Origin: Mytilus edulis
Lineage: Eukaryota
NCBI RefSeq assembly: GCF_963676685.1
Contig: NC_092350.1
Location: 25,668,001 to 25,732,000 of the forward strand
DNA length: 64,000 nucleotides
Direction of reading: 5' to 3'
Position numbers and translations under genes: made by a program. The notes beneath the pieces were generated by a model. That model did not search any database, was not told where the DNA came from, and was given only the letters and a program-made list of their open reading frames with translations. Of this stretch, positions 26,301-61,693 are shown one piece after another. How positions within the stretch are numbered: position 1 is the stretch's first letter; the number at the start of each line of letters is the position of its first letter.

Positions 26301-29300
26301 CAAGTTGAGAAATAAGGCTACTAAACACTTGTTTGTTTTATTTAGATTTCGTTACCCATCACAGAACTATACGTTTCAAACAATTTGCACAACAGGAATT
26401 AACCCAGGAGGTATAGCTATAGATAACGTACTTGGACATGTGTATTTCGCTCACGATAACACCAAGATCTCTAGATGTAACCTAGATGGATCAAATGCAG
26501 TGGATATCCATACAAGTCTAAACGGCCCTTTTGCTTTAGGACTCGATGTTAAAAATGGGTATATATATATATCCGTTGGTAATGATATCTTTGTGCATAT
26601 AAACAACTTCAAAAGGTAACTGTGTCATCCTAAACGAATCAAGATTTGTTTTTATTATCTGGTCTACAGATCTGTATATTGAATAGCCTCAATATTAAGT
26701 AAAAAAAAATTGAACTAATCAAGACCTCTTGGTTGATTTAAAAGAAAGGTGGAAGGCACCAAATACATAATCAAACTCATTAGTAAAAACAAACTTATTA
26801 TGCCATAGCTAAAAACAAAACAAATAACAAACAACATAAAACTGTCTACAAAACAAATTATAGAATACAAAGAATCCCAACAAAACATGGGAGCCGAATT
26901 CCTCTGCTCTAAGAGGGTAAAAGATCCGGATCTACAAGTGGAACCTGGCGGGTGGATTTTGTAAGTACAAACCCAGTGATAAGTCTCATAACGAGAAGAG
27001 GACTTATTCTTTGTCAACAATTGCAACATATCCATCGTTATCTGTAAAACAAATATTCCATAACGGTCAAGCAACTTGTGAAGGCGTCCGTAAAATATTT
27101 GAAGGGATGGCTTTAACTTCATTATTTAGATATCTTGGTTTTATAGCTTCCATGTAAGTGGCTAACCTGTATCAATAAAATCATGATAGAAATGTCAAAC
27201 TCTTGAATATTGTATCAACTGGGAGATATCTACCCTATATACAGGAGCTGGAGTATTGCTACTTAGAAATGGAAAGTTCATAATTGAGAAGCTGTAATCA
27301 TATCTTCTGTCCTAAATTTTGTTTTCAAATAAACCTCTGTGCCAATTTCTAAATGCAAGTTATGATATGAGGCACATGTAACTACATCTGTTTTATCCTT
27401 TAAGTAAAGTTTGTTTGAGTAGATATGTTCAACATGGTCACCAACCTTTGAATTTTGCAATTATAGGAAATCATGTATAAAGTTGAACGTAAAGTTAAAG
27501 TATAATGCGAACTTCTTTTTATTCATATGCATAACAAGATAAATTCAAAATCTTTCAAAAGTACTGCATTGTTAATATGTATATCTTTTTTTAAAGATAG
27601 TTCGACAAATATGTAATGAGACTATATAATGCTTTGCACTTGTCTCCTTTTGGTGTGTAAATTCATCAGAAATTCTATATAGTCTTACAATTATAAGTCA
27701 TGTTTATCTAAATATGTAGTTTAAATTTGGCCGTTTTTCATTCTACGATTGTTTTACTTCTTTTAAGCAAGATAAACATTTGTTTTCAAATCTGTATTAT
27801 TTATATAATGCATTGTTATTAAATATACTTATTATATGTCTTTCAGGTGGATGTATTTTTCAGAAAATGGAGTTCCACGTAAAATGGTAAGATCAAGATT
27901 TGATCTTTCTCAAAGGCAAGACATTTATACCCAATCATTCGTAGCTTACAGCCTTGATCTAGGTATGAGAATATCGTATGATTATATTTCATAAACATTT
28001 AGTAGTTCTTTAATGAGGATGGATGTTCATAAGGAAACACAAATCAATTCAGACTCAGTCTACGGCAATACTTCTTTCGGATATTGATAACCACCTAAGC
28101 GTCCTAATCCACGTTTGATTAAAGTAAATGTTAAATGAATGTCCGGAATATATTATTAAAGTAACTGTTGTTAAAACTGAGTACATGTAATGACTTGTGG
28201 AACAATGTTCTACTCTACTGCCATATTACATCGGTTAACTAGAGAAGCTGGTATATAATTCCAGGTGGTTGGCCATTATGTTATCTGTGTTTAAGATCAC
28301 CACAGATGTATAACAATTATGAGATGTAGTATGATGGCTAATGGGACCACTTTTTACTAGTTCAAATGGCGTAGAAATAAGCCATGAACGTATGGCCGTT
28401 AACAATGAAAATGACCCAGACCGTATGGTATATTAATGGTCCGACTAAAAGCATGTAAACACTTAATTTTGAGTGTAAATTCACATTGCGATAAGACGTG
28501 TCACGGTACTTGTCTATCCCAAATTCATGTATTTGGTTTTGATGTTATATTTGTTTTTCTCGTGGGATTTTGTCTGATGCTTGGTCCGTTTCTGTGTGTG
28601 TTACATTGTAGTGATGTGTCGTTGTTCTCCTCTTATATTTAATGCGTTTCCCTCAGTTTTAGTTTGTTACCCCGATTTTGTTTTTTGTCCATGGATTTAT
28701 GAGTTTGAACAGCGGTATACTACTGTTGCCTTTATTTATTCAGAAATAAAAGCGTAATCATTACGAATACAGTTGACTTAAAACAAATATGAAAGACATG
28801 AACCGGTTAAAACCATCGAATTATTGGCTCCCGACTGGGACAGCCACATGTGGCGGGTTAAAACATGTTCGTGCGCGTTGAATCCTTCCCTTTTATGGGA
28901 GAGTAGAGAACAAGTTTTACAGAATACATCAGAATAAACTGTGAAAATCAGTTGTGTGGGTTTTTGTGGTTCAGTCCTGAGTTTTTGATGTTTTAATATT
29001 CATGGATTTTCCATCGCTTTTTATTTCTTTTTTTTTTGTTGTTGCTATAGTGTATTCAGTTTTTCACGAGTATTGAGTTTTAAACGTTTCCTTCTGCCTC
29101 TTTAATCATAATAACAGAAATAGAGTTTGAATTGATTAACTTATGGAGAATTATATATCCCTTGAATCCTTAATCAAGCATAATGCTATTGATCAGTTAC
29201 ATATTCAGTTCCTGGCTCAAGTAAGAGGTTTTAAAAGAATATAAACAATAGAAAAATCAAATTAAAAAAAAACAGACTTTAAGGTCAGAGAAAAATTCGA

Positions 29301-32300
29301 AAAGATAGTCTAGAAAACTTTCAATGCTATTTTTTTATTGTTTCTGTTAATCTTTCTAGAAAATTCATTGAAAAATGTAAAATAACAAAAATTCCTAACT
29401 CCAAGGAAAAGACCCTTATCAAATTGCAAAATCAAAAGCTAAAACACATCAATTGTCATATTCATAGTCATGACTTGGTACAGGCATTTCCTAATGTAGA
29501 TAATTGTGGGCTTACATGCTAGCTAAACCCCTTATATGACAGTCATATAAAATTCCATCAATTTGACAAAAATCTGTGTACAAAACAAAATGACATAATA
29601 GGTAAAAATGTCAAAAATTGGTACAGCAGTCAACAGTGTTATAATCTTAATCACTATGAAAATAAACAAATTTATCAACAAAGAAAATCAAAATGGTATA
29701 TATAATGAGCACATATGCAAAACAAAACAAATAAGGATACCAAACAATTACCATAACACAATAGCACAATGGGGGATGTATAAGTACCGAGGACCAGGAC
29801 GGTTAATTGGTAGTCATATTGTTGATTGTTGAATATAAAAAATAAGGAGATGGGATATAATTGCCAATGAGACAACTCTCCATCAGGGAACAAATGACAT
29901 AGAAGTTAACAATTGGTTTACCGGACGGCGTTCAACAATGTTTCTTTTATTTAATTGAAGTACATGTATAGCCCGTAGGTATTATAAGTCGTCTATGTCA
30001 CGGGGTTTGTCCCTCATGTTGTATGATGTGACAGAAGAATATATAAACGTACTTAGTTATAATCTCCTTTTCATTTATTATTTTTGTAGTATGCATTCGT
30101 GGGATAAATTCGCACGTTGTTTTTGTATATATAATAATTGCACTTACATTTGGTTTTTTATAATACGTCTCCATCTTATGTTCAATACCAAGTAGGTTCA
30201 ATTATTCTAGATTTTATCCCAATGGGTGACATGATCGAACGTTCAATTTTGTCTCATATCTGAAGGGTTACACGTAATGACCTATGTAAGAATCGTTGTT
30301 TGAATTTGAAAGAATTTCTCATTAACATTTTTTCTCATACCGAGTTTCCGGATAACAATGAAATAATGAAATTTTCCTCAAAATTTCAATAATAACGTCT
30401 TTCATATAGACTTTTTTCAAGTGTTTCATATTCAAAGACATGTAACTGTAGTTTAAGTTCTATGTTGATCAAGCAATGACATTTGCGTGCTTGTTCCGGT
30501 GTGTTGATTCCCAATTGACTTTAATCCTCTTGTGTTTCTTCCTCATTGATTTTTACTCTCTTGTGTCACTTCCTCGTTAACTTTAACTCTCTTGTGTCTC
30601 TTCCTCGTTGATTTTTACTCTCGTGTGTCACTTCCTAGTTGATTTTAACTCTCTTCTGTATCTTCCTCGTTGACTTTAACTCACTTGTGTTTCTTCATTG
30701 TTGATTTTAACTCTCTTGTGTCTCTTCCTCGTTGACTTTAACTCTTTTGTGTCTCTTTCTCATTGACTTTAATTCTCTTGTGTCTCTTCTTCGTTGATGT
30801 TTACTCTCTTTTGGGTCTTCCTCGTTGATTGTCACTCTCTTGTGTCTCCTCCTCGTTGATTTTTCTCTCTTGTGTATCTTCCTCGTTGATTTTTACTCTG
30901 GTGTCTCTTCCTCGTTGATTTTGACTCTCCTCTGTATTTTCCTCGTTGACTTTAACTCCCTTGTGTCTCTTCCTCGTTGACTCTATTTCTCTTGTGTCTC
31001 TTCTTCGTTCATTTTAACTCTCTTTTGTGTCTTCCTTGTTGATTTAAACTCTTTTGTGTATCCTCCTCTTTCACTATAAATCTCTTGTGTATCTTCCTCA
31101 ATAATTTAACTCTCTTAATTGTGTCTCTTCCTCCTTGATTTTTACTCTCTTCTGTATCTTCCTAGTTGACTTTATCTCCCTTGTGTCTCTTCTTTGTTGA
31201 ATTTAACTCTATTGTGTCTCTTCCTCGTTGACTTTAACTCTCTTGTGTCTCTTCCTCGTTGACTTTAACTCTCTTGTGTCTCTTTCTCGTTGACCTTTAC
31301 TCTCTTATGTATCTTCTCTGTTGACTATAAATCTCTTGAGTCTCTTCTCCGTTGACTTAAACTCATTTATGTCTCTTCCTCATTGACTTTAATTCTCTAG
31401 CGTCTCTTCCGTGTTGACTTTAACTCTCTTGTGTCTCTCCCTCGTTGATTTTAACTCTTGTGCAGCTTCCTCGTTGATTTTAACTCTTTTGTGTCTCTTC
31501 CTTGTTGACTTTAACTCTCTTGTGTCTCTTACTTGTTGAGCTTAACTCTCTTGTGTCTTTTCTTTGTGGACTTTAACTCTCTTGTGTCTCTTCTTTGTTG
31601 ACTTAAACTCTCTTGTGTCTCTTCTCTGTTGAATTTAACTCTATTGCGTATCTTCTTTGTTGATTTTAACTCTATTGCGTATCTTCCTTGTTGATTTTAA
31701 CTCTATTGTGTCTTTTCTTTTTTTACTTTAACTCACTTGTTTCTCTTTTTTGTTGACTTTAACTCTCTTGAGTCTCTTACTCGTTGACTTTAACTCTCTT
31801 GTGTCTCGTCCTCGTTGACTTTAACTCTCTTTGTGTCTCTTTTTTGTTGACTTTAACTCTCTTGTGCCTTTTCTCTGTTGACCTTAACTCCCTTCGGTCT
31901 CTTCCTCGTTGACTTTAACTCTCTTGTGTCTTTTCTTTGCTGACTTTAACTCTCTTGTGTCTCTTCCTTTTTGATTTTAACTCTATTGTGTCTTTTCTTT
32001 TTTTACTTTAACTCTCTTGTGTCTCTTCCTCGTTGATTGTAACTCCCTTGTGTCTCGTCCTCGTTGACTTTACCTCTCTTTTGTCTTTTCTCTGTTGACT
32101 TTTACTCTCTTGTGTCTCTTCTTCGTTGGTTGTAACTCTCTTGTGTCTTTTCTCTGTTGACTTTAACTCTCTTGTGTCTTTTCTCTGTTGACTTTAACTC
32201 ACTTGTGTCTCTTCCTCGTTGACTTCTTTAATTCTTTTGTGTCTCATCCTCGTTGTTGACTTTTGTCTCTTTCAATGTATAAATATACTTTAATTTATGA

Positions 32301-33527
32301 AAGTCCAAGCAATACTAGTATTATCATAATTTCGCTATTTCATTTAATGCTAATTTTTGTTTTTAATTTAAGTCATGAAATCGTGGATGAATTAAAATCC
32401 TATCTTTTAGATTATGATGAACAAATGATGTATTGGATTATTGATGAAAGTAATGAAATAAAATCAGCAAACTTTGATGGGACTAATATTAAAACGGTCA
32501 TGAACCTTAATGCACATGGCGGCAAATATGACAATATTGCCATTCGCATTTCTACAAGTTACATTTTCTTTACTGAATATGGCAAGTTATTTAGGATGAA
32601 TAAAACGACTGCGACCTCGCCAACTCTATTGTATACCGACACTAAAAGTATTAACAGCTTATATCTTTATGAACATACAGGTAAGAAACGTCATAAATTC
32701 AGTCTTGAAAGAAATGATATTTCGTAACAAATAACATTTGAAACTGTTTAGAAAAGCTCACTCGATGAAAGATTATTTTGTTTTAACAAATTTTTATTCG
32801 ACCGCATTTTGATATGATTTGTTTTTATTAATTATTATTCAATACTGGACAATAGTGATTTATGACAATGGTTATGGCAAATAAAATGCAAAAGGTGCTT
32901 CTTTGATCATTCATGTCAATTCTTTTAATCAAGTTCAAATCCAATGCTTTACCAAACTTTTATTATTTGTATTTCTGTGTACATATATTTTATTATAACT
33001 TTACGTTTTTGTTGATATGGCTTGAATTGCTTTGTATTTATATTCTAATTTATTTGCATGCTTTCAATGTTTTATACGTTTAGAATTAACGAAAGTATCA
33101 TTTTTCAATATTTTACAGTGTTATTTTCATTGAGTGACTATCATGATTGTATATTTGAATATCGATAAATATGTCTGTTTTATTGAGTATTGATTTTGAC
33201 ATTGACATATGACGTTCTTTAAATTTTGCAATTTAACAAACAGTAATGCAGATAGGGATATTCTAGATTGTACAATTTGTCCTTGCATTTGCAGGAGGAA
33301 ATATGCAGTCACTCCCATTCTTTACCTTTATTTGCAAGTGCATTCTATGTTCATTATGAGTGTCATATTTTTTTCAATATTGAAATAATTTGGTACATCA
33401 GAAATATCTTTAATACATTACTAAGTATAACTTATTTATCACCATTCCTTCAAATTCTTCTTGAAGTATGTTATACATCTTAGCAGACGCCACAAAAGAA
33501 GACAGAATTGATGAAACTTACATTTAA
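14335..33527 (+). CDS. LRP/nidogen-like YWTD (LDLR class B) beta-propeller protein; spliced, first coding exon not identified
   Basis: Phase-compatible AG/GT exons 14335-14506, 26346-26558, 27847-27962, 32411-32680 and a probable last exon 33487-33527 (stop, then ATTAAA at 33531). Motifs [74 protein letters not shown]. Joined length 812 nt keeps the frame (~270 aa). The last exon is less certain. Confidence 0.85.
16152..18010 (+). mobile_element. 5'-truncated Penelope-like element, second family (RT C-terminus plus long 3' UTR)
   Basis: 16152-16346 translates [27 protein letters not shown]...[23 protein letters not shown], homologous to the end of ORF 20346-21776; its 3' tail recurs at ~1115-1195, 9545-9650, 29370-29640, 35820-36120 and 39606-40238. 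Confidence 0.75.
16851..17602. mobile_element. TA-flanked MITE with palindromic subrepeats
   Basis: ~40-bp TIRs TGTTCCAGACCATATGAGTATTTGGACCGTACGCGTACGG and inverse; TA/TATA flanks; repeated palindrome GGACCGTACGCGTACGGTCC. Confidence 0.85.
18118..18668 (+). repeat. ~340-bp tandem repeat with degenerate minimal type I hammerhead ribozyme motifs (retrozyme/PLE-pLTR-like)
   Basis: Unit repeats from ~18119 and ~18460. Motifs GCGTCA-CTTGTGA-GTCT..AGAC-GAAA-TGCTGGTC-TGGC (18260-18301) and GCGTCA-CTGTTAA-GTCT..AGAA-GAAA-CGCGCGTC-TGGCGT (18600-18643). More decayed copies at ~8330-8440 and 13300-13770. Confidence 0.65.
19200..23640 (+). pseudogene. Penelope-like retroelement with RT and C-terminal GIY-YIG endonuclease, decayed and split by a nested insertion
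   Basis: [16 protein letters not shown]...RQLSDERF (19239-19364) resumes as YRK at ~22085; [17 protein letters not shown] and WFRFIDDI (22535-23014); [30 protein letters not shown] (23312-23620); multiple frameshifts and stops. Confidence 0.9.
19364..22086 (+). mobile_element. Penelope-like retroelement with N-terminal GIY-YIG remnant followed by RT (Naiad-type), 5'-truncated, one frameshift
   Basis: Frame from 19364 reads [35 protein letters not shown] (GIY-YIG C-terminal half). ORFs 19436-20383 and 20346-21776 carry [35 protein letters not shown] and FRYIDD. No endonuclease after the RT. 3' UTR ends GGTATCTTTCGTCCCTCTTTTA. Confidence 0.9.
25532..25925 (+). mobile_element. Possible non-autonomous Helitron/Helentron-type element
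   Basis: 5' stem-loop ACACCTGTGATATCGCGGGT and 3' AATTTTAGTATTATA end. Confidence 0.3.
26740..27490 (-). pseudogene. Old Naiad-type RT C-terminus and 3' UTR fragment
   Basis: ORF fragments [22 protein letters not shown] and [11 protein letters not shown]...[10 protein letters not shown] match the end of ORF 20346-21776. Confidence 0.8.
30515..32270 (+). repeat. 31-bp minisatellite, roughly 55 copies, consensus TTGACTTTAACTCTCTTGTGTCTCTTCCTCG
   Basis: Directly visible tandem array with diverged units; strongly pyrimidine-rich on +; intronic. Confidence 0.95.
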
Positions 33528-34982
33528 GACATTAAAAGTAAACTTTGAATCTTTCATGAATAGTTTTTGAAGAGTTATCCTTAATTTAATATAGTAATGG
33601 GGAAATAGCTACGAGATATATAAAAATTGTACAGCAAGTATGGTTCAATCTTGTCAAAATAAGAAACATTACTAATAATTCGACCACATCGAATCCGTAT
33701 TCATGTGACCTTTAATTCAACCCCTTATCTAGAGATTGATTACGCATAAATTATGCGTGTTCAGTTATTAAAAGGAAACACATGTCAACACTGAAAATGA
33801 AACAAAGGTAAATAATTTGATTGACTGATTTGATCGTCAAAACACCATTCTTATACATGTACAAATGATGATTTACATATATTGTTAACCTATAATATGA
33901 AATTAAACAGTCGTTGAAAAAATCGAATGTCCCGAAAATACAGACGAAACGTATATACATATTATCGAACCCATGTCTTGTTAGTTGGATTTTTTTAGAC
34001 TTTTTACAATTTGGATATACATTTACGTATGTTATAAATCAAGTACTATGAGAATTTGAGTCAAATCTGTGAACATGAATTCGACAGCATTGCATCTTAT
34101 ATTTGTTTTATGTGATTATTTTTTAACAATTCTCAATCGTGAATATGCTTTCATGTTACTATTTTATTTTTCTAATAATAGTGATAATATAAGTACTGTT
34201 TTGAAGTTTTGTATTGTTATTTTCCTTATTTCTTAATTCTTATTAAATCATTTATGATGGTTAAATGATATTGAATGTATATCTTAGTAAATGTATCAAC
34301 AAATTTAAACCAAATTGATTTCCTTGAAAGATAATATTTCTTCTTTCATTTCAATACCTTTTGTGTGAGCTTTAACGAAAGAAAAGACCACGAAGAATGT
34401 TCATCATTTTTATGTGATACGAAAGAAAGTTATTTGGAATAGTAAGTATTTTTGATATGGAAGAAACCAAAGCAGTTATTTGAAAAAGTGAGTTTTCCAC
34501 TTTGTCAATATGTCATCTTCTGCTTCTTTTTTACTATTTTTTACCTTAACTTGGCGTAATGAAATATACAAAACAGATATTGATTCATGTATTTTGAAAA
34601 CACACATTACGATTCTATGTTAAGGAAACCAAAGAATTATTTAAAGGTATTGTATAGCACAGATGCCTTATTTTATAATGCTACTGACTGAAAAACGCAG
34701 TATTTTGCCAACTTTATCAAACATTATTTGTTTCTAATTAAATTCTTGTTAATTATTTATTCTAAACTAATGAAAAACATCATGTTATGTAGCTGAAAAA
34801 AATCATGCTCATCCGAGCATACACCTTTTCTGGTGACTTCAAAATATAAACAACTTGAGACTTGTGAAATTTGAGAGACACACAAAGCTTTGAAATAGCA
34901 GTTTGACAATTTGAGATCTTTCATTATTATTAAATACCAAAACAGTGCATCAAATGAAGTGTATCTTAAAAAATAAACATGA

Positions 34983-35530
34983 TTTTTGTCGAGCCTGGAC
35001 TTTTGTCGCAGAAAGCTCGACATAGGGATAGGTATTCGGCGGCGGCGTTAGCTAACTTCTTAAAAGCTTTATATTTTGGAAGGACGAAGACCTGGATGAT
35101 CCATACTTTGTATATAGATGCCTCATGATACGAAGTTTCCGTCGGTCACATGTCCAATGTCCTTGACCTCATTTTCATGGTTCAGTGACTACTTGAAAAA
35201 TAGTTCAGATTTTTTGTTATGTTAAATTCTCTCTTATTATAAGTAATAGGATAACTATATTTGTTATGTTCGTACCTTCCAAGGTCCTCAAGCCCAACAG
35301 ACAGTTTTCATTTGACCACGACCTCATTTCCTGGATCAGTAAAGAAGGTTAAGTTTTTGGTGGTCAAGTCCATATCTCAGATACTATAAGCAATAGGTCT
35401 AGTATATTTGGCTGTAAGGTGTACAAGTCCAACTGGCAGGTGTCATCTGACCTTGACCTCATTTTCATGGATCATTAGTTAGAGTTAAGTTTTTGTGTTT
35501 TCGTCTGTTTTTCTTATACTGTATGCAATA
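34983..35530. mobile_element. Helentron/HINE-type non-autonomous element
   Basis: Terminal stem-loop TGTCGAGC...GCTCGACA, (GGC)n tract and internal TGACCTCATTTTCATGG repeats; related pieces at ~49480-49795, 52380-52880 and 63330-63635. Confidence 0.6.
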
Positions 35531-36911
35531 GGACAAAAGAGATGATTTCAGCTCCCTAATTGTGAATTTTCATTTTCAACTAAAAGTTCCAAATGGTGGA
35601 GTTGAAATCATCACTTTGTAAAGTTAAGGGACGCCATTACGAGTTGGTTGACCGTATGGAATATTCGTTTCACAAATTATATCGGATATATCGTAACTAC
35701 AATCCCGTTCCCCTTTTTTACGAATTTGACCTACCAAATTAGCCTATTTACCGCCTTTGTAATGACACGAACACCACCACGGGTGCCACGTGTGGAGCAA
35801 GATCTGTTTACCTTCGTGTTGCTGTTGTACCCGTATTTGTGACATTTTTACCTATTGAGTCTGTTTGTTTTGTTCACACATCGTTGTCAATATATTAGAA
35901 TTTGATGTGACAGTCATAAAAGTGAAGGATTTAGCTAGCTTTAAAAACAGGTTTAATCCACCATTTCCTACAAAAAAAAATGTCTGTACTAAGTCAGGGA
36001 TATGACAGTTGTTATCCATTCGTTTGATACGTTTGCGCTTTTGATTTAACCATTTGATTATTAGGGACTTTCTGTTTTGAATTTTCCTCCGAGTTCAGTA
36101 TTTTTGTGATTTTACTTTTATCCAAAATCATTAAGAAGACGACTTACTTTGTCATCACTCAATCATCAATCAAACACAATCAATTACATGTATGTTTTGG
36201 CTCAACATTGTTGTACATGTATGAAGAAGAAAAAGTTCTTATTAACTTGATCAAAAAAAGGTGAACTCCCACCACTACTTTTTTTACACAATGTACCGTA
36301 AGGATGTACATATTTCTGCTGTGACAGTAATATTTTTTCCGGAATGATCTTCGGACGAACAAATCGCCCGCGCAGAAATATATGGAACAGTTCATCGTTA
36401 ATAGACCTTTTTGTCCGCATTTTGCTACGACTGCATTACCTAATGCTGAATTAGTTATGGGTAGCTTTTGTTACGGTTCCTTCCAATACGTATCATTGAA
36501 GGGTTGTGTCATTTTTCATTTAGTATCCGAACCATTTGACATTGAAGGATTCTTTATCCTAAGACCTACCACGTAAAAACCTGAAGAATTTCTGTGCACC
36601 GGGATTTCCAAGATTCCTTGAACTTGACGCTTCATTTTTTTGTAAAACAAAACAGTTTTCTGATTAGTAGCTTTGTGTTGCCAATATGAAAGGTGACTAC
36701 GAACATTCGATTATAAATTCAATCTGTAAATCTTAAGAAAATGTTTATTTCTATTGGAAAATTCAAAAGCAATTATTGAGTCAACTGTTTATTGTTATTC
36801 TTTGCTTTATATGTTTTACGAACCATTTAGTCTGCGTTGAATAATACCTATAACATTGAACGATCGACCAACTTGTAGTATTGACACCCCACAATTGAAC
36901 AAACTCACTAG

Positions 36912-37954
36912 ATGGTTTGCTTGATGATGTCAAAATTAACAGAACTGAATTATCAAAAAGCAAACAGACCATTGAATGGATCTAATATCGACCCACGGAC
37001 CAAGTACAAAATGTATCTACAGAATCTCTCTTCGGGTTTTGATTCCAGCACAGTAAGTCCGATACATGGACCTGAGACGGAGCGTTCTCAGAATCAAACT
37101 TCAACTGATCGACGCTACAGGCAACCCCATTGCCAAAACAACTACGTGGCTTTTGTTGATCTATGTTTGCATTCCATCTTTTTGCAAGTAGACTGTTATC
37201 TTCAACAAATTTAATCTTCCTTCAGAAAACTGGGGAGTACTTATCCGTTGAAGGCTTACATAGATACCTTACTGAACATAGGTGCCAACGACTTCATTCG
37301 GCGTACCTCGTAATTTTTTAAAAAGATACGGCAGGTTATCACGACGACACTAACGTACAAACGGAATATACTTGCGCTCCAGATACACAGACGAGGGACG
37401 CATCTTGAATAATGGAATAGACAATTCACTCCAAGCAGTAATGTTCGCTCAATAGTCTATCGTTGAAGTTCTTCGGGAATGCGACTGTCTTGTACCCTGT
37501 TGTAGGCAGTCGCTTTAATACTGCCATCGTATCGGTGGGCGAATACAGTCACTGCGAGAACAATGTGTTCCAAAGTAAAGTTCAATCTATGTTAATTGTG
37601 GCACTCGTCAACAACGAAGCCTTCAACGGAAGTAATAATAGGTCATCGTTCAATTTCCAGGCGTACGACTGTGCTTTTGTGGGGGTTTTACATCGACGGA
37701 CAGACATTTCCAGCTAAACTTTTGCCGGCAAGAACTAAGTGGAAGTATAAAGGGGCCTGGCTGTTTTTACAAGTAACGTGTTTATCATTAATTTCCAATA
37801 CTCGGACACCAGGGATTTCAATACCAAGCGCAGATAATATTGTATTTTAGAACCTCGTTTTGGTAACACCCTACCTGAAAGCATCACTGAGCTCATGCAC
37901 GCTAAGCTTTCAACGATCATACACGTGGACCAATCCCACAGCGTCTTACTCTAA
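36912..37954 (+). pseudogene. Polinton/Maverick major capsid protein (double jelly-roll), disrupted
   Basis: Across frameshifts: TIEWI*YRP..RYMDLRRSVLRIKLQLIDATG..VAFVDLCLHSIFLQVDCYL..TYPLKAYIDTLL..FLKDTAG..NVFQSKVQSMLIVALVNNEAFNGSNNRSSFNFQAYD..FYIDGQTFPAK..LEPRFGNTLPESITELMHAKLSTIIHVDQSHSVLL*, colinear with Polinton MCP motifs. Confidence 0.85.
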
Positions 37955-38050
37955 AGAACAACTTAGAACTGGAAGAACTGTTACAAAACTATCCCGTACC
38001 GGCTGAAGCGCGAACATCGATCTCGTTGAGATGATCATCAACGATAATCT

Positions 38051-38170
38051 ATAATTATCGTTACGTCCATCGTCTGTCTGACAGTGCAAAACAGCATGAA
38101 CGAGCTGTGGATCACTCTACTGAGCATTGTCATAGGTTATTCTCTACCCAGTATCTCGCTGAGGAAAACA
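38051..38170 (+). pseudogene. Polinton-type small transmembrane protein remnant
   Basis: IIIVTSIVCLTVQNSMNELWITLLSIVIGYSLPS: two hydrophobic segments and a W..LL...GY.LP motif like the small membrane ORF of Polintons. Confidence 0.55.
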
Positions 38171-38200
38171 TCAGAAAGACTTCGGAGAAGACAGAGCATC

Positions 38201-38545
38201 ATGGGGTATCCATTTTTATCGTGCATGCGCATCATAGGGCAAACGAATTCTTGAAAAACGCCTTTTGTCTACATGTTATTGTAACAATTGGATGGCATGT
38301 ATGTCAAAGACCCGCAAGTAAAAGTGCTCTGTTGTTATGGCTACTCCAATCTCTCTTTGACAAGATGGAAGAGACAATACCTCGACTTACTTTTCACAAT
38401 GGCTTACCACGTGCACTGATGGAGACGAACGAGGAATTTATAGCTGATAACAGTTTACCGCTTGATCGTGTTGGATGACTTGATACATCGTGTGGTACGT
38501 AATGTCAACATGGAACTATTGTTCACACAGGGGTCGCATCACAGA
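38201..38545 (+). pseudogene. A32/FtsK-like genome-packaging ATPase of the Polinton, disrupted and C-terminally truncated
   Basis: YPFLSCMRIIGQTNS*KT (Walker A with TGA at 38252 in place of Gly), KVLCCYG, QSLFDKM, FHNGLP, Walker B LIVLDDL, LFTQGSHHR. Confidence 0.85.
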
Positions 38546-38559
38546 CCACTATATCCCGG

Positions 38560-41400
38560 AAGCTCGAATATCTCACCAAGTTCTTAAATCACGCCGTTTC
38601 TAGGCTGTTAAGATATCTTATGTCATGATTAATTGTTTTTGTCCATGATGGTTCCGCCGTATGAGCTCTTTCCTTCCAGTTTGGACGTATCGGCGATGAT
38701 GGCTTTATTAGAATGAAATCAACCATTCGACCGACGATTGTCACTCACTATCACAATGACAGCGATGCAGCGTAAATCAAATCACCTTAAAAAAAAATTG
38801 GAAACCTCCATACCGTGTTCCTAATACCATTTCAGCAGTGGAGTGGCAATCATTATTTGTCCAGAATCGTTTTCGTAACCCACTTATTAGAAGACAAGGT
38901 TTGTCAGAAAATTCGAATCGTCGGACATGATCCTGCATGTGTTCGCCGATAATATCGACCTCAACAGAGGTAGTATTCAAAAGTTGTCATGTTCGCAAGT
39001 TGAAAATGTGATGACTATACGCTGGAACTTGGATGTCGCATTCCATCATTCAAAAGAGTCGATCGTTCTAAACAACTTGGTGGTTTCCGGGAATTACAGA
39101 AGGCTTTTAAGATGTCGTCTCCTAGAATCTCGCCTTTCCTGGCCTGTCGTCCTTCGTGCTATTTCTGCTCTTTGACTGTCTTTGTTTTCTACAATTTTTA
39201 TCATGTCAGTCATATCCGTGAAATTGATACACGGTGTTTGATTGCGCATTGAATCCGTCCACCGGATAGGGACCGATCTTATTCTCTTTGCCCATGTTAA
39301 TTTGTGCTGGATATGAAGACCCTGTGTAATGTTAAGGTACTCCATCCAGTCATACATCAGAGCGTATTTATCTCTTGTTTTCTATCCTTCATCCAAACGA
39401 CGACGAACAAAGGCTCCAGTCGGCACTTCCTGGTCGATGGTCCACAGATAGAAAGACAAGGATTCTTCTGACATGGTTTTCCGGATTGTTCCGAAAGTAC
39501 GATAGTCCACTTTTGGTAGTGACGATAGAGAATGACGAACGGACCAACAGTTCAATTGTGTTTAACGGTGTGATATAGAGCACTATTGACTTCGGCGAAG
39601 AGGGCAAAAAAAAGTAAAATCACAAAAATACTGAACTCCAACGGAAAGTCCCTAATCAAATGGCAAAATCAAAGGATAAAACACATCAAACAAATGGACA
39701 ACAACTGTCATATTCCTGACTTGGTACAGGCATTTTCAAATGTAGAAAATGGTGGATTGAACCTGGTTTTATAGCGCTTAACCTCTCACTTGTACGACAG
39801 TCGCATCAAATTTAATAATATTAGGTAAAAATGTCACAAATAAAGATATAAAGTCTAATTCGGTAAGTCACATTCGTGCAAAGGGAACGGGGTTGTAGAC
39901 ACAAGGAACATATCCGATATCATCTATATAACAGATATTCCATAACGGTCAACCAACTCGTAAAATTTACGAAGTGATGATTTCAGCTTCCCAATGCTTC
40001 ACTCTTCGTCGTAAAGTTTTGTTTTCAACCAACCCTCATAGTCAATTTCTAGATATAAATCCTAATCAAGTGACAAAATCAAGAGCTCAAACACATCGAA
40101 CGAAGGGATAACAACTGTCATATTCCCGACTTGGTACAGGAATTTCCTATGTAGAAAATGGTGGATTGAACCTGGTTTTATAGCGCTAAATCTCTCTTTT
40201 ATGACAGTCGCATCAAATTCCGTTATTTTTAAAACGATGCTCCGGCTGTCGACTCATATTGAAGAACATACATCGTGCGAGTCAAGATACAAATATGGAC
40301 GATTTAAAAACGATTTCTTGCAAAACAGGCGTCGTTGTTGTTTCTTTGGAAGTGTTGTCTGAACCGTGAATGTCTAGTTGCTTGGCCAAGTATGATTTGA
40401 CCAGATGCATGTCGTACTAGGCCGAATTGAATCCCAAAACGACGGTTTGGATGCAGTAATCATCGAGGTTTTCCTTAAGCTTGAGAAAGACGTTTTTCAC
40501 CCTCTCGACGTGGTTTTACATTCTTCATCGTCCAAACATGCATCTAATTTATATTCATCGTCGTCGTCCTCCTCAAGGACAGCTCTCATTAGATGATATC
40601 TTGTTGTCGTACTGACATCGGGATTTGTAGACGGTAAAGGCTACACTATCATTCCATAATTGATAGACGTCGACGTTGGTCTTGAAGCAATGTTTGAAAT
40701 AGGCTATTTGATGTAGTGGTAAATCCTTGAATTTCTTGGCATCAGTTTTGACGTGTAGCTGTTTATCTAGAGCAAACTGGATTCATTTATCGGGCAGTCG
40801 TTTGGTGTGCAAATCCAGTTACAAAATATATATGTCCTTTGAGGACGGTCAGACATCGGAAATTGCAACTAGTTTCTTATTACTTTTATTCAGATCGATG
40901 ATCGATTTAGATGCAGTAATATACTCTGGTAACTGGTTGTCGATATATCACAAGGGATAGTTCAAATAGTATAGAACGAACCTGACGTTGGTGATCAGGT
41001 AGGATTTCCACTTCGCATAAGGTCGAAACGTTGAAGACTGAGTCGCAGTCATACACATTTGTACGTCTTAAAATGTAGATGAAACGCTGTAATAGAGATT
41101 CATTGGCATACCCTAAAAAATAGTGCTATTAAGACTGATTTTCTTGCTATAGTCGATTTGTTTTGCCTGTTCCATAAGTTGTGGGACAGTGAGGTCGCTG
41201 GTCAGTGGGACGATATACGTAGAAGAACTTTCCTTTCGATTCTATAAATGAGAGGTGCATTTCTTTTTTTAAACTGTCATCATCGTCGATTTCCCATGGT
41301 GCTTGGTCGAGATTTAATGGCACCAGCTCCTATCTGTTTATGTTCCTTCATGCTGTACTGTTGACTTCTGTCCGGAAATTGGGAAGTGCACCAGAGACAC
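38560..41400 (-). pseudogene. Protein-primed DNA polymerase B (pPolB) of the Polinton, disrupted and interrupted at ~39606-40238
   Basis: Minus strand, in order: RPYAKWKSYLITNVRF (~41000), LPEYITASKSII, exonuclease-II VVLGFNSA*YDMHLVKSYL (~40390-40445), LYLWTIDQEVPTGAFVRR (~39400-39455), IQHK..KIGPYPVDGF..NTVYQFHG, MECDIQVP, IGEHMQ, KWY*EHG, motif B IIADTSKLEGKSSYG (~38655-38700). Motif C (DTDS) not seen. Confidence 0.85.
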
Positions 41401-43514
41401 TGGTATGAACTGGGTCACGGTTGTAAAGAGATTGAACAAATTAACCTTTCGACTTAATAAAAATAGGTTATTACGATCCTTTCACTTTAAATTTAATTGA
41501 TCTTTTGTTTTAAACTTTACCCCTTTAATATCGCTAAAACTTAATCACTTGAATATCTGATCCACTACAAATCAATCCCTTGAATGTCGCTGCAACTAAA
41601 ATTTTTGAATATCGTTTAAAATTGTAATTAAATTCCTTCTAACATTCTTTTTTAATCTTTCGACCTGATTAAAATAGGATATTATTTATGTCTTGAGTTT
41701 TTATTTATTACTTGAGTTTTTTTACAACTATTCCCTTGAATGCTGTTTAAAAATACAATTGATCTCGTTTTAACAACTGAATTTTTCGACGTGATAAAAA
41801 CAGGATATTTCGATCCTGAGAAAATGATTTACAACTTAATCCCTTGAATGTCTTTAAAATATCTTCATTTTAATCCGATATAACATACTATATACTTTTT
41901 TGATAAATGAGCTGACATGACAATCGATGTTTCTTTAAATCTTGCTTCTATTTGTATTTCGTTTCACAAATTGTGTACCGATATCCCCCCCCCCCCATAT
42001 GACTTATATCGTGATTTACATCAAAAAAATAAACAATAAGGGTATTTAAATCAAAGCGCTGTAAGCACTGTAGGCAGTTAGCCAAAAACCAAGGCAAACA
42101 TAATTATGAAAACTGTGGCAATGTTGCTTCAATTTTTTTTAAAGATTTAAAATAACAAACATTAAACATTCATATAGAATTGTACATTTATGTTCATTTA
42201 ATGAATTAATTATTAAGGCAAATAATTCATATTTTATCAAGGTTTTCAATAGCAACGTATATATCAAGTATATTTTTTTTCATGGTCACGAGTCTCGAGT
42301 CAGCAGTGGTACAAATTCGCAATGATTGCAGTTCTTCTAGTTGATCGTAATTGTTCGTATTAGTTGACTGTTAGTATTTCAAGTTGACTTTAGTACGAGC
42401 TTGTAAAAGGATGAATGGACTTGCTTCCCTGGAAAGATAACTGCGTTTGTGTTCTACAGTACAAAAGTTATGAGACACAAATCAGACAAATGTTTACTAC
42501 TACAGGGATCAATAGTGAGGTCTGACTGACATGTCCATAGTAAATGTAAATGACTCCCACCTTCAACCCATGTCCATGATGTCTAAGTTTGGAATAAAAT
42601 GATAGGTGTTAGATCTAGCAAAGTGATATGCATATGTGACGCCTATGAGATTGACCTTGTATGTCATTCAATCTTTTTGAAATGACAAACAGGAATGAAT
42701 ATGGTTTAGGAGTTGGTATCTCAATCTTTTACAAGTTCTCAAAACACACACAAGAGGGTGTGAGTGACCCTAGGGACTTCCCCTATTTTTCATTTGATTT
42801 TTAATATTGTCCCATACATGAATATATATATGGTTTAGGGGTGGGGACCCCAGTGACTTCCCCTATGGGGATCTCATTTGTTTCCAAGTTATCAAACAGG
42901 ATTGGGTAGGGTGACCCTAAGAACTCTCCCTATATTTCATTTGATTTGTTCTTTTGTCCCATACAAGAAACTGTATGGTTTAATTTAAGGTTAGGATCTC
43001 GACTGTTTCCAAGTTCTCAAACAACAGGAGGGGTTGGCCGCAGGGACTTCCCCTATATTTTATTTGAATTTACTTATTTTAAGACTACTGACGCAGTTGA
43101 CTACGTATTGACGACAAACAATATTCCTACGACTTTTGCCATTTGGGAAATCTAAACTACATGTCTTTAGAAATTTTCGGCGATTAAACATTTAATACAT
43201 TTGTTCCTTGACAGCTTAGCCAAAATCTCTTGGGATAATAAACTACATAAAGATTCCTTATGTGCCCTACTTCCTATGTACAACTTCAAAACTTTTGGAT
43301 AAAACGACGATCATTTAAGGTTTTTTTGATCATATTTTTTGTAATCAAGAATTAAAATTATGAACAAACTGTCCAATTAGTTATGAATAACATTAATATC
43401 CAGCTAGATAATAACAATGGCACATATTTCAGCATTTATTGGGTAGAACACAAATCTAGGGTGCTCGCATAAGGCAGCTTAACTGCCTAAAAAAACACAC
43501 TTTACAGTATCAGA

Positions 43515-44080
43515 GATGATTTCATCTTCCCAATTGTGAACTTTCCATTTCTACGTAGCAAATTTCTAGCAGCACCTGCATATTGAGTTTTTTCTGCCGG
43601 ATATTCCAAAGCTTGCACTTCCTTTCATGACTTCCTGGATAGAGCCACTTAAAAGAAGCTACTGAACCCAGTAATTCAAGTGGTGAAGTTGAAATCATTT
43701 CTTCGAAAATTTTACGACAGCCACCAATTATTGGTTGACCGTAGGGGAATATTACATGCGACGACGGATATGTTCGATATTTTGCAACCACAATCCCGTC
43801 CTGTTTTCTAGAATCTGGCCTACTGAATCACTTATCACAGGGGTACTTCTTAGCTGAAAATCAAGACGGATGCCACAAGGGGAGTAGGATCTGTTTATTC
43901 TTCTTGAGATCACCTCGAGAGGTCCGTGTTGGTAAGTCTTTATTTTTCTATGTTGTGTTTTGCTTACAATTGTACAATTGTTCGTCTTTCGTTGTTTTTA
44001 ATGTTTTGCCATGGCATTATCTGTTTGTTTTCGACTTACGAGTTTTGATATCCCTTTTGTTTCTTTCGTCCCCCTATAGA
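43515..44080 (+). mobile_element. Old Naiad-type 3' fragment
   Basis: GATGATTTCATCTTCCCAATTGTGAACTTTCCATTTCTA matches 21483 onward, followed by the same 3' UTR; similar fragments at ~35535-35810, 39850-40055 (-) and 3320-3660. Confidence 0.75.
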
Positions 44081-44412
44081 AATTTTTAATATTTTCAAGT
44101 AAATGTTTGCACTGCTTTTGGCCCCTAAAATTGCGGTCTGTTGTTTGTAAATGTGTAGTTTCCCAATCTCAATGTCTAGAATACAATTTTTTTATGGTTG
44201 CATTAGAGATAAAATTGAGAATGGAAATAAAGAATGTGTCAAAGATACAACAACCCGATCAAAGAGCAGAAAACAACAATGGGTCTTCAATGCGGCGAGA
44301 AACTCCAGCACCCGGAGGCATGCTTCAGCTTACCCCTAAACAAAAATGTATACTAGTTCAGTGATAATGGACGCCATACTAAACTCTGAAATAAATAAAA
44401 GAAACTAAAATT

Positions 44413-45350
44413 AACAAGAGGCTGTCACAACGACAGCAAACCGGATTTATTAATATTTATTTGTGTCCTGGCAATATCACAAGAACCATTACTGATGAAT
44501 GGTGAAAGTGAAAATCGTCAATATCAAATTTGACCTCCATTTTGTCATCAGTAACAACATATAAAAATTTCAAAAGCTTTGGTTGAATGGTTCATGAGAA
44601 AATGCACGGACACGACTGGAAACACCATTTTTCAATCTTTCAAGAACCATAACTCCTGAACGGTAAAAGTCAAAATCGTCATTATTGAACTTGACCTCTA
44701 TTTTGTCATCAGTAACAATATATTAAAATTTTGGAAGTTTTGGTAAAACAGATCATGCGTAAATGCACGGACACGACTGGAAACACCATTTTTCAATCTT
44801 TCAAGGACCATAACTCCTGAACGGTAAAAGTCAAAATCGTCATTATTATACTTGACCTCCATTTTGTCATCAGTAACAACATATTAAAATTTGGGAAGCT
44901 AAGGTAGAACAGTTCATGCGTAAATGCACGGACACGACTGGAAACTCCATTTTTCAATCTTTCAAGAACCATAACTCCTGAACGGTAAAAGTCAAAATCG
45001 TCATTATTGAACTTGACCTCCATTTTGTCATCAATAACAACATATTAAAATTTGGGAAGCTTAGGTAGAACAGTTCATGCGTAAATGCACGGACACGACT
45101 GGAAACTCCATTTTTCAATCTTTCAAGAACCATAACTCCTGAACGGTAAAAGTCAAAATCGCCATTCTTGAACTTGACCTTCATTTAGTTGTCAGTAACA
45201 ACATATTAAAATTTTAAAAGCTTTGGTTGAACGGTTCATGAGTTAATGCACGGACAACATTTGACAAAATGTTTGATTGCCGCCCGCCCGCCCGCCGTAC
45301 ATCCCCAAAATCAATAACCGACATTTTTTTCACAAAAATCCGGTTAAAAA
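44413..45350 (+). mobile_element. Helentron/HINE-type element with an internal 161-bp tandem array
   Basis: Starts AACAAGAG; subterminal inverted AACCGGATTT / AAATCCGGTT; ~4.5 copies of a 161-bp unit; (CGCC)n microsatellite; the empty site is visible in the sister repeat at ~46520. Confidence 0.8.
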
Positions 45351-45499
45351 TCATACAAGACTAACAAAGGCCAGCGGCTCCTGACTAGGGACAGGCGCAA
45401 TAATGCGACTGGGTTAAACATGTTTTTTTTAGATCTCAACCCTCCCCTTATACCTCTAGCCAATGTAGAAAAACAAACACACAACAAAACACACAGTTA

Positions 45500-45756
45500 C
45501 AGCCGATTGCATTAAATGTGTAGGAAAAGGTAGTATCTTTGGTTAGCTTGCTTGCTAGCTGAACCTTGAAGTCATTACTATCCTTCTTTCGAAGTAGCCT
45601 ATTCCTAAAGACAGATATATTGGTTATCTGTTGGACTAGTCTACTCTTAAAGGAGGGTAGCTTACCTAACCTTATAATGACTTCATGGTTTCGCTAGCAA
45701 GCAAGCAAGCTAACCAAAGTTAATACCTTTACCTACACACTCAATGCAATCGGCCG
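45500..45756. mobile_element. 257-bp fold-back MITE with TA target duplication (Tc1/mariner-type)
   Basis: Arms CAGCCGATTGCATTAAATGTGTAGG / CCTACACACTCAATGCAATCGGCCG, pairing continues toward the centre; TA at 45498 and 45757; empty site GTTAAACTC at ~46671. Confidence 0.85.
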
Positions 45757-47577
45757 TAAACTCAATTTAAAAGAAGTCCGAGTCCGATGTCAGAATAGAA
45801 CAAAAGAAACTAAACAAAATGACAATGATACATAAATTAACAAAGGGATACTAGCAGTAGTTATTGACATGCCAGCTTCATGTCTCATTTACACTGATTG
45901 AAATATTATGTCTTCATCATATCAAGCACAATCACTTCCGTTATGGGTTTAGTATTATACCATCATAACATATAAGAGAAGAACAAAACGCATATCATGC
46001 CAACAACTAATTTTAGAATAAATGTGTTTATTTCTGATGCAAAGACCCTATAGATGAATCAATATTAAAGCCAAAATATCCTATCTTTAATGGCCTAACT
46101 ACAGTATCGTAACTATATCTCTTCTTAATAAGCCTGTAGAGGTCGTTCGATTTATACGTTTACGTATACGCATCTGGGAGAATATGCTCAAATAATTTCC
46201 GTGATCGAGATTGATACCCCATGTAACATTTTGAAAGAATAACGGGAATCAAACTTCGGGGCACTAATCAATTTACATCTGTGTACTTCTGAATGCCTAA
46301 TTTCAACTTAATATATAAAATTTAGAAAGGGAATGGGTGATGTGTCAAAGCGACAACAACCCGACCATAGAGCAGACAACAGCCGAAGTCCTCCAATGGG
46401 TCTTCAATGTAGCGAGAAACTCCCGCACCCGGAGGCGTCCTTCAGCTAGCCCCTTAAAAAATATGTATACTAGTTCAGTGATAATGGATGTCATACTAAA
46501 CTCCGAATTATACACAAGAAACTAAAATTAAAATGCATACAAGACTTACAAATGCCAGAGGCTCCTGACTTGGGACTGGCGCAAACATGCGGCGTGGTTT
46601 TTTTTAGATTTCACACCTCCCCTATACCTCTAGCCAATGTAGAAAAAACAAACACACAACTATACGCAAGGTTAAACTCAGTTTAAAAAAAGTCCGAGTC
46701 CGATGTCAGAATAGGTAACAAAAGAAACTAAACAAAATGACAATGATATATAAATCAACAAAGGGCTACTAGCAGTTATTGACATGCCAGCTCCAAACCT
46801 CTGGTTATAGAATAAATGTGTTTATTTCCGATGCAAGGACCCTATAAATGAATCAATATTAAAGCCAAAGTAAAGCATCTGGGAGAATATGCTCAAATAA
46901 TTTCCCTGATCGAGATTAATACCCCATGTACCATTTTTAAAGAAAAACGGGAATCAAACTTCGGGGCACTAATTAATTTACATCTGTGTACTTCTGAATG
47001 CCTAATTTTAACTTATAATATATAATACATAACTTATTGATATTTAGCATTGAAATAACAAAAGGGTACATAAGCCTTAAGTCTATGTTGCATATGAAAG
47101 ATCTTTATTTGAGCTGCGTCGGATAGAAATCGACATAATGCAAGTGCACTCATACATGTACATGTATAAGTGATTGATTGCATTTGTAATATTCTATTAC
47201 AAAAGAACAGATGAATTTTGGTCTGTTATGTAGGGTTCGTATATCAGCTAAATTTTCTAATAGTTACAGACTTTGCATAGATGTTTTATTCAACACAAAA
47301 TAAGTTAACAGATGTTCTGATTTTCATTGGCATATTAAGGTCGATTTCTAAGCGACGCAGCTCATTTCATTGGGAACTACAACAATTAAACACTGGGTTT
47401 TTTTCCAGATTGGTAATAATTTTGTTTTACAAAAAAAGGGAGGGGGTATCACTTACGAGTAGTACGACATATGACATTGATCCAAATTAATCAAATAGTT
47501 CACCGATTATATTCGTTTTAGATGATAATTTTAGCATATTTCCCTAGTTGCATATCGGATACTTTGGGTACGTTTTA

Positions 47578-61000: not shown

Positions 61001-61693
61001 TTATAATCACGCTACATCTGTGTGCGCTGTGGTCAACATTATGATGTCAATAGACAAAGATATATAATAAGAGAAATTTACCAATAACTATACCACAAGT
61101 CTATACGACATTTCAGAAGATGAACTACTTAGACCACTCGGCTATCAGACAATACAAGACGCAATATACCAATAGGGGAGACAATAAAACTCATAACTTT
61201 GTTTCAGACACGCAACACTATTATAATACAACCAAACGAAAAGAAAAACAAACAAACAGTTTAGAAAAAATACACATAAAACTAGTCATTGAGCAACATG
61301 GCTAAAACTACGTATATGTGTGCGCATGTGCTAGGAAATGGACGTCTAAATTGCAGCTCTCAAAAACATTTGGAACTTACAGATTTTTCCACATTGATAA
61401 ATCCCGGATCTTGCTATTACATCAATATTTGGCTTTTATTTGTCATTGTGTGTATGAAAATTATCAAAATGTTTGATATTTCCTTGTAAATTAAAATGTT
61501 GTATACGTAAATTTTTGATTCACATTTGTACAGTGGCGGGAAAATTATTTTCCATCAATGTAAACAGTGTAAACCACTTCCGGTTTACTTTTTTGTTTGT
61601 TTTTGTTTTGATCGGCAAACAGAGTCTTTGTGATTAAAAAGGTAATAATATCCTATCTATCAATCCTTACACCTTATATAATATGGCTTCCTA

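What the first reader, a model, noticed from the sequence alone, without database searches (positions are those of the whole stretch)
36912..41896. Hidden endogenous virus fossil: Polinton/Maverick capsid, membrane protein, packaging ATPase and pPolB
Seen: by stitching frames, ordered motifs for a major capsid protein, a small membrane protein and an A32-like ATPase on +, facing a protein-primed PolB on -. Stops and frameshifts hide all of this from the ORF track. Known: this gene set defines Polintons/Mavericks (adintovirus-like), which are predicted to form virions. Inference: an old integration of a possibly undescribed bivalve lineage; no integrase or protease is recognisable in what remains.
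Basis: partly seen in the sequence, partly recalled or inferred. Interest (0 to 1): 0.8.

Follow-up and report, generated by a model that had tools for sequence, protein, structure and literature searches.

The report
Decayed Maverick virus fossil in mussel
This 4.5-kb stretch is the broken, partly deleted remnant of a virus-like Maverick (Polinton) element that entered a mussel genome long ago; it is real but ordinary, since the same genome holds many such elements.

Summary
Confirmed. Window 36965-41420 is a single-copy, decayed remnant of a Maverick/Polinton. Proteins of an ORF-complete 18.6-kb relative in the same genome (two copies, 339-bp terminal repeats, 6-bp target duplications) map onto it in the same order and orientation. 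On + lie the major capsid gene, half of a small membrane-protein gene and half of the packaging ATPase; on - lie pieces of a protein-primed polymerase. Over 1,126 aligned codons identity is 57%, with 19 stops and 28 frameshifts. Folds of relatives match double-jelly-roll capsids and phi29 polymerase with an inserted VSR nuclease, a trait already reported for mollusc Polintons. Integrase, minor capsid, nearly all of the protease, the polymerase end and the terminal repeats are gone, and host repeats interrupt two places. The capsid gene falls in a bivalve clade, next to an ORF-intact public sequence (70%). Its decay fits about 0.15-0.2 neutral substitutions per site. The locus is shared by runs under four organism labels. 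Bivalve Polintons are already known in very large numbers, so this is a new member of a known kind. No function for the host was found.

The parts
36965..37951 (+). Major capsid protein pseudogene (double jelly-roll)
   Evidence: 320 of 420 residues of the relative align, 53% identity, 6 stops, 7 frameshifts, about 70 residues lost; 70% over 310 columns to P0008; the relative's model (pLDDT 91) matches Sputnik, iridovirus, PBCV-1 and mavirus capsids, best E 4.9e-16
37957..38004 (+). Possible stub of the maturation protease start (marginal; overlaps the host repeat at its end)
   Evidence: 16 codons, 44% identity, score 29 against a maximum of 28 in 100 shuffles; sits where the protease follows MCP in relatives
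37994..38064 (.). End of a ~280-bp dispersed host repeat, lying where the protease and the first half of the membrane-protein gene are missing
   Evidence: Dozens of 84-89% matches across the genome; the 7 loci examined share a longer repeat; depth thousands of times the flanks in this bin
38051..38170 (+). C-terminal 40 codons of a conserved 76-residue hydrophobic protein
   Evidence: 57.5% to the relative, no stop; 120 of 120 listed homologues hit it at E<1e-5, best 75%; the relative has a strongly hydrophobic first segment, Kyte-Doolittle 2.4, and a weaker second one; no Pfam family
38201..38551 (+). N-terminal half of the A32/FtsK-type packaging ATPase, pseudogene
   Evidence: Residues 1-117 of 217, 60% identity, 2 stops, 2 frameshifts; Walker B region kept, Walker A eroded; the relative hits PF04665 at E 9.5e-5, just under the cut-off
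38552..38637 (.). Junction of the large internal deletion that brings ATPase and pPolB face to face; 86 unassigned bases
   Evidence: About 3.5 kb of the relative is missing here (from coordinates); one contig of run X15 leaves the window at 38550 while another bridges it
38638..39608 (-). pPolB residues 700-1079 (motif A region, VSR insertion, motif B), pseudogene; motif C and the C-terminus are absent
   Evidence: 316 codons, 58%, 9 stops, 9 frameshifts; alignments; motif C lies at residue 1168 of the relative
39610..40240 (.). Host repeats inside pPolB, in place of roughly residues 570-699
   Evidence: Related copies elsewhere in the window and in fetched loci; depth up to 10^5-10^6 against about 5-20 on the viral parts
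40276..40586 (-). pPolB residues 464-569 (exonuclease II region), pseudogene
   Evidence: residues 294-463, including the Exo I region, are absent
40585..41420 (-). pPolB N-terminal region, pseudogene
   Evidence: Residues 1-293 at 41351-40585, 58%, 1 stop, 8 frameshifts; homologue P0122 extends the match to 41420
41421..41896 (.). AT-rich stretch with degenerate 33-40-nt repeats; possibly the element's non-coding upstream region, not shown
   Evidence: Weak direct repeats; single-copy depth; no match to ORFs or termini of relatives

Best explanation
A Maverick/Polinton of a bivalve lineage with a VSR-containing protein-primed polymerase entered the germ line once at this site and then decayed. 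Shown: the four genes, their order and orientation, their breakage, the host repeats inside them, single-copy status, and sharing of the locus among samples. Inferred: the element arrived whole through its own retrovirus-like integrase, as relatives with perfect 6-bp target duplications did. Later deletions removed both ends (integrase, minor capsid, accessory genes, terminal repeats) and three internal stretches, host repeats landed in it, and point mutations accumulated neutrally to about 0.15-0.2 per site. It now encodes nothing functional and cannot copy or package itself. What the living element did follows from the family: terminal-protein-primed replication of a linear DNA, integration, and predicted packaging into a double-jelly-roll particle by the ATPase; virions have not been observed (PMC8097293). 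Confidence in the identification alone is about 0.97; the number below includes the history.
For: Gene map and chance control. 19 stops and 28 frameshifts in 1,126 codons, spread over three of the four genes. Folds of relatives: capsid; polymerase, whose 9 best matches are all phi29 polymerase, best E 1.8e-8, followed by VSR (VSR also by profile, E 4e-7). Relative with integrase (PF00665, E 4e-11) and protease (PF00770, E 0.0018, under the cut-off). 4 of 4 repeat-bounded relatives have identical 6-bp flanks. Tree: fossil sister to P0008 (SH-aLRT 100; end branches 0.47 and 0.025) inside a 17-row clade with this genome's C6/C10, C2, C3 and C1 elements. Simulated neutral decay of 0.15-0.2 gives 67-75% protein identity and 4-7 stops per 318 codons; observed 70% and 8. 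Flat, flank-level depth over viral parts and left flank in DNA runs X1 and X15.
Against: No terminal repeats, target duplication or integrase remain, so integration of a whole element is inferred from relatives and not seen. The tree is the quick one (careful search unfinished; no bootstrap). The age rests on taking P0008 as a stand-in for the ancestor and on a simple mutation model. The relative's polymerase has no PF03175 hit at E<=0.01, and the capsid profile has no sequence match in PDB; both identifications rest on predicted folds and motifs. Whether P0008's own polymerase is also the fossil's nearest was not tested.
Confidence: 0.85

Rival explanations
1. The piece never was a whole element here: a truncated fragment was captured by DNA repair or copied from an older insertion elsewhere, or the two halves come from two separate insertions.
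For: No ends or target duplication survive. One X15 contig departs from the window exactly at the ATPase/pPolB junction, 38550, for 237 letters.
Against: The two halves face each other as in the C6/C10 relative and have similar identity to it (53-60%) and similar lesion density. No closer donor copy was found in the genome by DNA or protein searches (these score only the best candidates).
Confidence: 0.1
2. The remnant is kept because it serves the host, for example as a small-RNA source against active Mavericks, a regulatory element for the neighbouring gene, or a retained membrane peptide.
For: The locus is held by runs under four organism labels. The 40-codon membrane-protein piece has no stop. 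A host gene exon lies 4.3 kb upstream.
Against: About one stop or fewer is expected in 40 codons at this decay, so none is unremarkable. The piece has lost its first half and start. Alleles differ by 2.5-3.5% with indels inside the viral genes. At 62-67% DNA identity to the nearest ORF-complete family, small RNAs would pair poorly (inference). Of 26 reads laid from one small-RNA run, none fell on viral sequence (weak, 13% of one run).
Confidence: 0.04
3. Artefact: contamination by a free virus, or assembly errors that mimic stops and frameshifts.
For: None found.
Against: It lies inside a 93-Mb contig among host repeats and exons. Independent runs give the same sequence, X1 with 9 differences in 4,545 bases over the 8 pieces listed, with contigs running from flank into viral DNA.
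Confidence: 0.01

Closest known systems
Mavericks/Polintons (polintoviruses; animal 'adintoviruses')
   Same: Double-jelly-roll capsid, packaging ATPase and protein-primed PolB in two convergent modules. Relatives in this genome add integrase, protease, AGTAGT-ended terminal repeats and 6-bp target duplications, as described in PMC8097293 (passages), where 96% of vertebrate loci are likewise degraded fossils.
   Different: This copy is a 4.5-kb remnant without integrase, minor capsid, intact protease or termini, and it cannot be autonomous.
Mollusc and marine-nematode pPolB2 Polintons with a VSR insertion (10.1101/2023.08.22.554363; passages and section 8 read)
   Same: VSR nuclease domain inside the polymerase of the family; the fossil aligns across that region. 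Close homologues come from Crassostrea, Haliotis and Tegillarca, genera listed in that paper's alignment legend.
   Different: Placement in the pPolB2 clade was not tested with that paper's sequences; its extended data were not seen.
ORF-complete Maverick family of this genome (G000:C6 about 49,399,744-49,418,354 and G000:C10 about 11,184,731-11,203,342)
   Same: Same gene order around MCP, membrane protein, ATPase and pPolB; 57% protein identity over 1,126 codons.
   Different: A separate subfamily (60-67% DNA identity). Its two copies are 99.4% identical and so recent; the fossil is old and single-copy.
Degraded Maverick relics on human chromosomes 7 and 8 (PMC9683012, abstract; PMC8502044, passages)
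   Same: Old, broken, orthologous Maverick insertion usable as a dated fossil.
   Different: Different host and lineage. The age here is relative only, with no calibrated date.

Membership tests
Maverick/Polinton | [quoted passage not shown] | tested here: met
   652 of 1,407 codons align as broken pieces; the family has invariant PolB motifs and folds like phi29 polymerase. No PF03175 hit for the relative.
Maverick/Polinton | Double-jelly-roll major capsid protein | tested here: met
   320 of 420 codons align; the relative's model matches virophage and NCLDV capsids.
Maverick/Polinton | A32/FtsK-like packaging ATPase | tested here: met
   N-terminal 117 of 217 residues; the relative scores 22.4 bits on PF04665 against a cut-off of 22.8.
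Maverick/Polinton | Retrovirus-like integrase | tested here: not met
   No match in the 64-kb window at E<=1; present in relatives. The locus is therefore filed as a remnant derived from a Maverick, not as a complete Maverick.
Maverick/Polinton | Adenovirus-like cysteine protease | tested here: inconclusive
   Only a marginal 16-codon stub; whole in relatives.
Maverick/Polinton | Minor capsid protein | tested here: not met
   The relative's 140-residue ORF upstream of MCP (taken as the minor capsid from position only, not tested) has no match in the window.
Maverick/Polinton | [quoted passage not shown] | tested here: not met
   No match to three relatives' termini beside the fossil and no 8-base terminal motif in 33-47 kb; one 7-base match at 42495 has no partner. 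Met in 4 of 4 repeat-bounded relatives.
pPolB2-VSR subgroup of mollusc Polintons | VSR nuclease domain inserted in pPolB | tested here: met
   Relative residues 785-843 match E. coli Vsr (E 0.002); family profile E 4e-7; the fossil aligns over residues 746-1003.
pPolB2-VSR subgroup of mollusc Polintons | Phylogenetic placement within the pPolB2 clade | not tested
   Reference pPolB1/pPolB2 sequences of that paper were not in hand; no polymerase tree was built.
Alpha/Beta adintovirus classes | PolB class, OTU domain, and PLA2X or GasderminX accessory genes | tested here: inconclusive
   Lack of a PF03175 hit fits the 'divergent' Beta description (PMC8502044), but several close homologues do carry PF03175. 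OTU and accessory genes were not tested.

The most novel reading that the evidence does not exclude
The fossil time-stamps a mussel-infecting virus lineage that is still circulating almost unchanged. Its capsid gene sits 0.025 substitutions from the node it shares with an ORF-intact public sequence, while the fossil has drifted 0.47, roughly ten times the allele divergence between organism labels. The lineage has entered this genome repeatedly (fossil, C1, C2/C3, C11, C6/C10 and C12 subfamilies at different stages of decay). Members carry a TBP-like gene and a conserved, unnamed 76-residue membrane protein wedged between protease and ATPase (144 homologues, no Pfam family), which could be the sign of an internal membrane or packaging-vertex component in Maverick particles.
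Probability: 0.25. Interest if true: 0.5.

Novelty: new member of a known kind. Interest (0 to 1): 0.2.

Why it matters
By itself little: degraded Mavericks are the commonest state of these elements, and this genome has dozens of capsid and polymerase loci (100 matches among 100 of 131 candidates scored for MCP; 136 matches among 87 of 173 candidates for PF03175). Its use is as a calibration point. It is an orthologous, neutrally decaying insertion shared across samples, with a barely changed living relative, and that allows the long-term rate of Maverick capsid evolution in bivalves to be bounded. It also shows that proteins filed as host 'uncharacterized protein F54H12.2-like' in bivalve annotations are Maverick capsids.

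Tried and rejected
Pfam on the window's own ORFs and read-through frames gave no relevant family. The capsid profile against PDB sequences gave 0 matches. A search of IMG/VR for the membrane protein gave 25 pattern matches, none confirmed. No RNA holder was listed for the stretch, which says nothing on expression. Run X14 is only guessed to be RNA and covers flank and fossil alike, so I do not take it as transcription. Small-RNA run X22 gave 26 reads, all in host repeats and all only partly fitting; short reads may be lost, so this is weak. Remains of other genes beside the fossil: none, with 17 proteins of the C6 relative against the whole window or ORFs of four sister elements against 32300-36960 and 41420-47000, apart from a zinc-finger hit at 41915-41983 (E 0.01) that I treat as chance. 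Inverted-repeat pairs 35938-36119 / 39610-39775 are copies of a host repeat, not termini. I first suspected that the 'membrane protein' was only host repeat; rejected for 38051-38170. Whether the fossil lies in an intron could not be settled: exons of a propeller-type host gene were found at 14334-32682 (+), none further downstream. Earlier scan notes: nothing for this genome or this sequence. The careful tree search did not finish.
Full report
1. Is it there? Yes. The region has no long ORF, and Pfam finds no relevant family in 12 ORFs or 13 read-through frames. A DNA search of the own genome with 36950-38700 and 40230-41440 pointed to two loci on C6 and C10. These hold two 99.4% identical 18.6-kb elements with 339-bp terminal inverted repeats and different 6-bp target duplications. 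Their proteins map onto the window: MCP at 36965-37951 (+), a 76-residue hydrophobic protein at 38051-38170 (+), ATPase residues 1-117 at 38201-38551 (+), and polymerase residues 1-293, 464-569 and 700-1079 at 41351-38638 (-). A frameshift-aware alignment gives 639 identities in 1,126 codons, 19 stops and 28 frameshifts. The best score is 139 bits, against at most 26.6 in 20 shuffles and 11 other tiles.

2. What the genes are. The relative's 420-residue protein, folded with 63 homologues (pLDDT 91), matches Sputnik, iridovirus, PBCV-1 and mavirus major capsid proteins (best E 4.9e-16); it has no Pfam hit and no sequence match in PDB. The database copy identical to it is labelled 'uncharacterized protein F54H12.2-like [Mytilus edulis]', which is my basis for calling the host a mussel. 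The 1,407-residue protein has no PF03175 hit at E<=0.01, but its family keeps invariant PolB motifs, and a homologue's model (pLDDT 77) has phi29 polymerase as its 9 best matches, then Vsr. The VSR insertion is also seen by sequence. The relative further encodes an rve integrase, a C5 protease (weak), an A32-like ATPase (just under the cut-off), TBP-like, CARD, PC4 and zinc-finger proteins.

3. What is lost. No integrase, minor-capsid candidate, accessory gene or terminus matches near the fossil. The protease is at most a 16-codon stub; its place and the first half of the membrane-protein gene are taken by the 70-bp end of a host repeat. About 3.5 kb, including the ATPase C-half and polymerase motif C, is missing at 38552-38637. 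Polymerase residues 294-463 are missing, and host repeats fill 39610-40240.

4. Relatives and age. No closer copy was found in the genome (lower bounds only). I built a 59-row capsid tree from the fossil, 4 other G000 genes and 54 of the 120 listed homologues (quick IQ-TREE, SH-aLRT only). The fossil is sister to P0008 (support 100; 70% over 310 columns; end branches 0.47 and 0.025). They lie in a 17-row clade with this genome's C6/C10, C2, C3 and C1 elements, next to oyster and pearl-oyster sequences. Random decay of a relative's capsid gene by 0.15-0.2 substitutions per site gives 67-75% identity and 4-7 (SD about 2.4) stops per 318 codons; observed 70% and 8. So nearly all the distance to P0008 can be neutral decay after integration (inference). 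Of 24 listed runs, 15 hold 0.39 or more of the sampled words; they come from 9 studies, four organism labels and two metagenomes. I laid 4 runs. Over the 8 pieces listed per run, X1 (organism A) differs at 9 of 4,545 bases, X14 (B) at 92 of 3,715 and X15 (D) at 180 of 5,169. Depth on the viral parts equals that of the left flank in X1 and X15. The insertion is thus about ten times older than the split between the window's allele and organism D's (0.175 against half of 0.035); this is rough and has no calendar date.

5. How it works. The remnant does nothing as a virus. The history I favour is integration of a whole element by its own integrase, then deletion, repeat insertion and neutral decay. 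Integration is inferred from relatives (4 of 4 with perfect 6-bp duplications). Capture of a fragment or two separate insertions (0.10), host co-option (0.04) and artefact (0.01) are the rivals. Against my reading stand the missing ends and one X15 contig that departs at the deletion junction.

6. Comparison with what is known. PMC8097293 (passages) defines intact Mavericks by eight ORFs, terminal repeats and 6-bp duplications and finds 96% of vertebrate loci degraded. 10.1101/2023.08.22.554363 (passages and section 8; extended data not seen) reports VSR-bearing pPolB2 in mollusc Polintons. 10.1101/2025.04.19.649669 (passages; supplements not seen, and they may list this locus) counts 107,631 viral regions in bivalve genomes, 58.5% Orthopolintovirales. 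PMC10294476 (passages) finds Mavericks in all mollusc genomes it analysed. PMC8502044 and 10.1101/697771 (passages) define adintovirus classes and describe a comparable human relic; PMC9683012 (abstract) dates such relics. Six searches showed no description of this locus or family; Repbase could not be searched. Because integrase, minor capsid and termini were tested and not found, I file the locus as a remnant derived from a Maverick, whose lineage membership rests on the tree and on relatives that meet the features.

7. Verdict. Observation confirmed, interpretation supported, novelty low: a new member of a known kind, interest 0.2. The more interesting leads lie in the relatives: near-stasis of the capsid in P0008, TBP-like and CARD cargo in recently mobile copies (TBP already noted in other genomes by earlier scan reports, unchecked notes), and the unnamed conserved membrane protein.

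Noticed in passing
G000:C6 ~49,399,744-49,418,354 (L013-L015) and G000:C10 ~11,184,731-11,203,342 (L017-L019): Two 99.4% identical, ORF-complete 18.6-kb Mavericks with different 6-bp target duplications, so recently mobile. They carry TBP-like (PF00352, E 3e-22), CARD (PF00619), PC4 and C2H2 zinc-finger genes, and a 213-residue ORF that looks macrodomain-like by eye, with no Pfam hit.
   Followed up: partly
G000:C2 ~52.31 Mb, C11 ~35.12 Mb, C12 ~1.84 Mb (L067-L068, L071-L072, L075-L076): A TBP-like gene is present in 3 of the 8 further regions examined. Earlier scan notes report TBP in Mavericks of other genomes; a TBP label appears in figure legends on non-animal MELD viruses in 10.1101/697771.
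   Followed up: partly
G000:C11 ~35,111,765-35,126,877 (L067-L068): A 15.1-kb repeat-bounded element with a target duplication keeps PC4, a frameshifted pPolB, TBP and CARD genes but shows no capsid, ATPase, protease or integrase match: an internally deleted derivative.
   Followed up: no
window 38550: Run X15 has one contig that leaves the window at the deletion junction (237 letters unaligned) and another that bridges it, suggesting two alleles.
   Followed up: no
L014:7328-7555 (-), and window 38051-38170: A 76-residue hydrophobic protein between protease and ATPase has 144 homologues among 145 candidates and no Pfam family; Atlas neighbours are unnamed viral clusters. It was not matched in the C12 or C1 elements.
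   Followed up: partly
window 14334-14507, 26332-26571, 27830-27967, 32383-32682 (+): Exons of a host gene of a large propeller-repeat (LDL-receptor class B-like, weak Pfam hint) family, with 59 matches in the genome.
   Followed up: partly
window 19358-21773 (+): Reverse-transcriptase-bearing retroelement ORFs (PF00078, E 1.3e-5).
   Followed up: no
window 54654-55037 (+) and 61682-61999 (+): A sulfotransferase exon (PF00685, E 2e-21) and a PHD-finger ORF (PF00628, E 2e-7).
   Followed up: no
window 30515-32255 and 44480-45256: Tandem arrays of 31-bp (56 copies) and 161-bp (4.8 copies) units.
   Followed up: no
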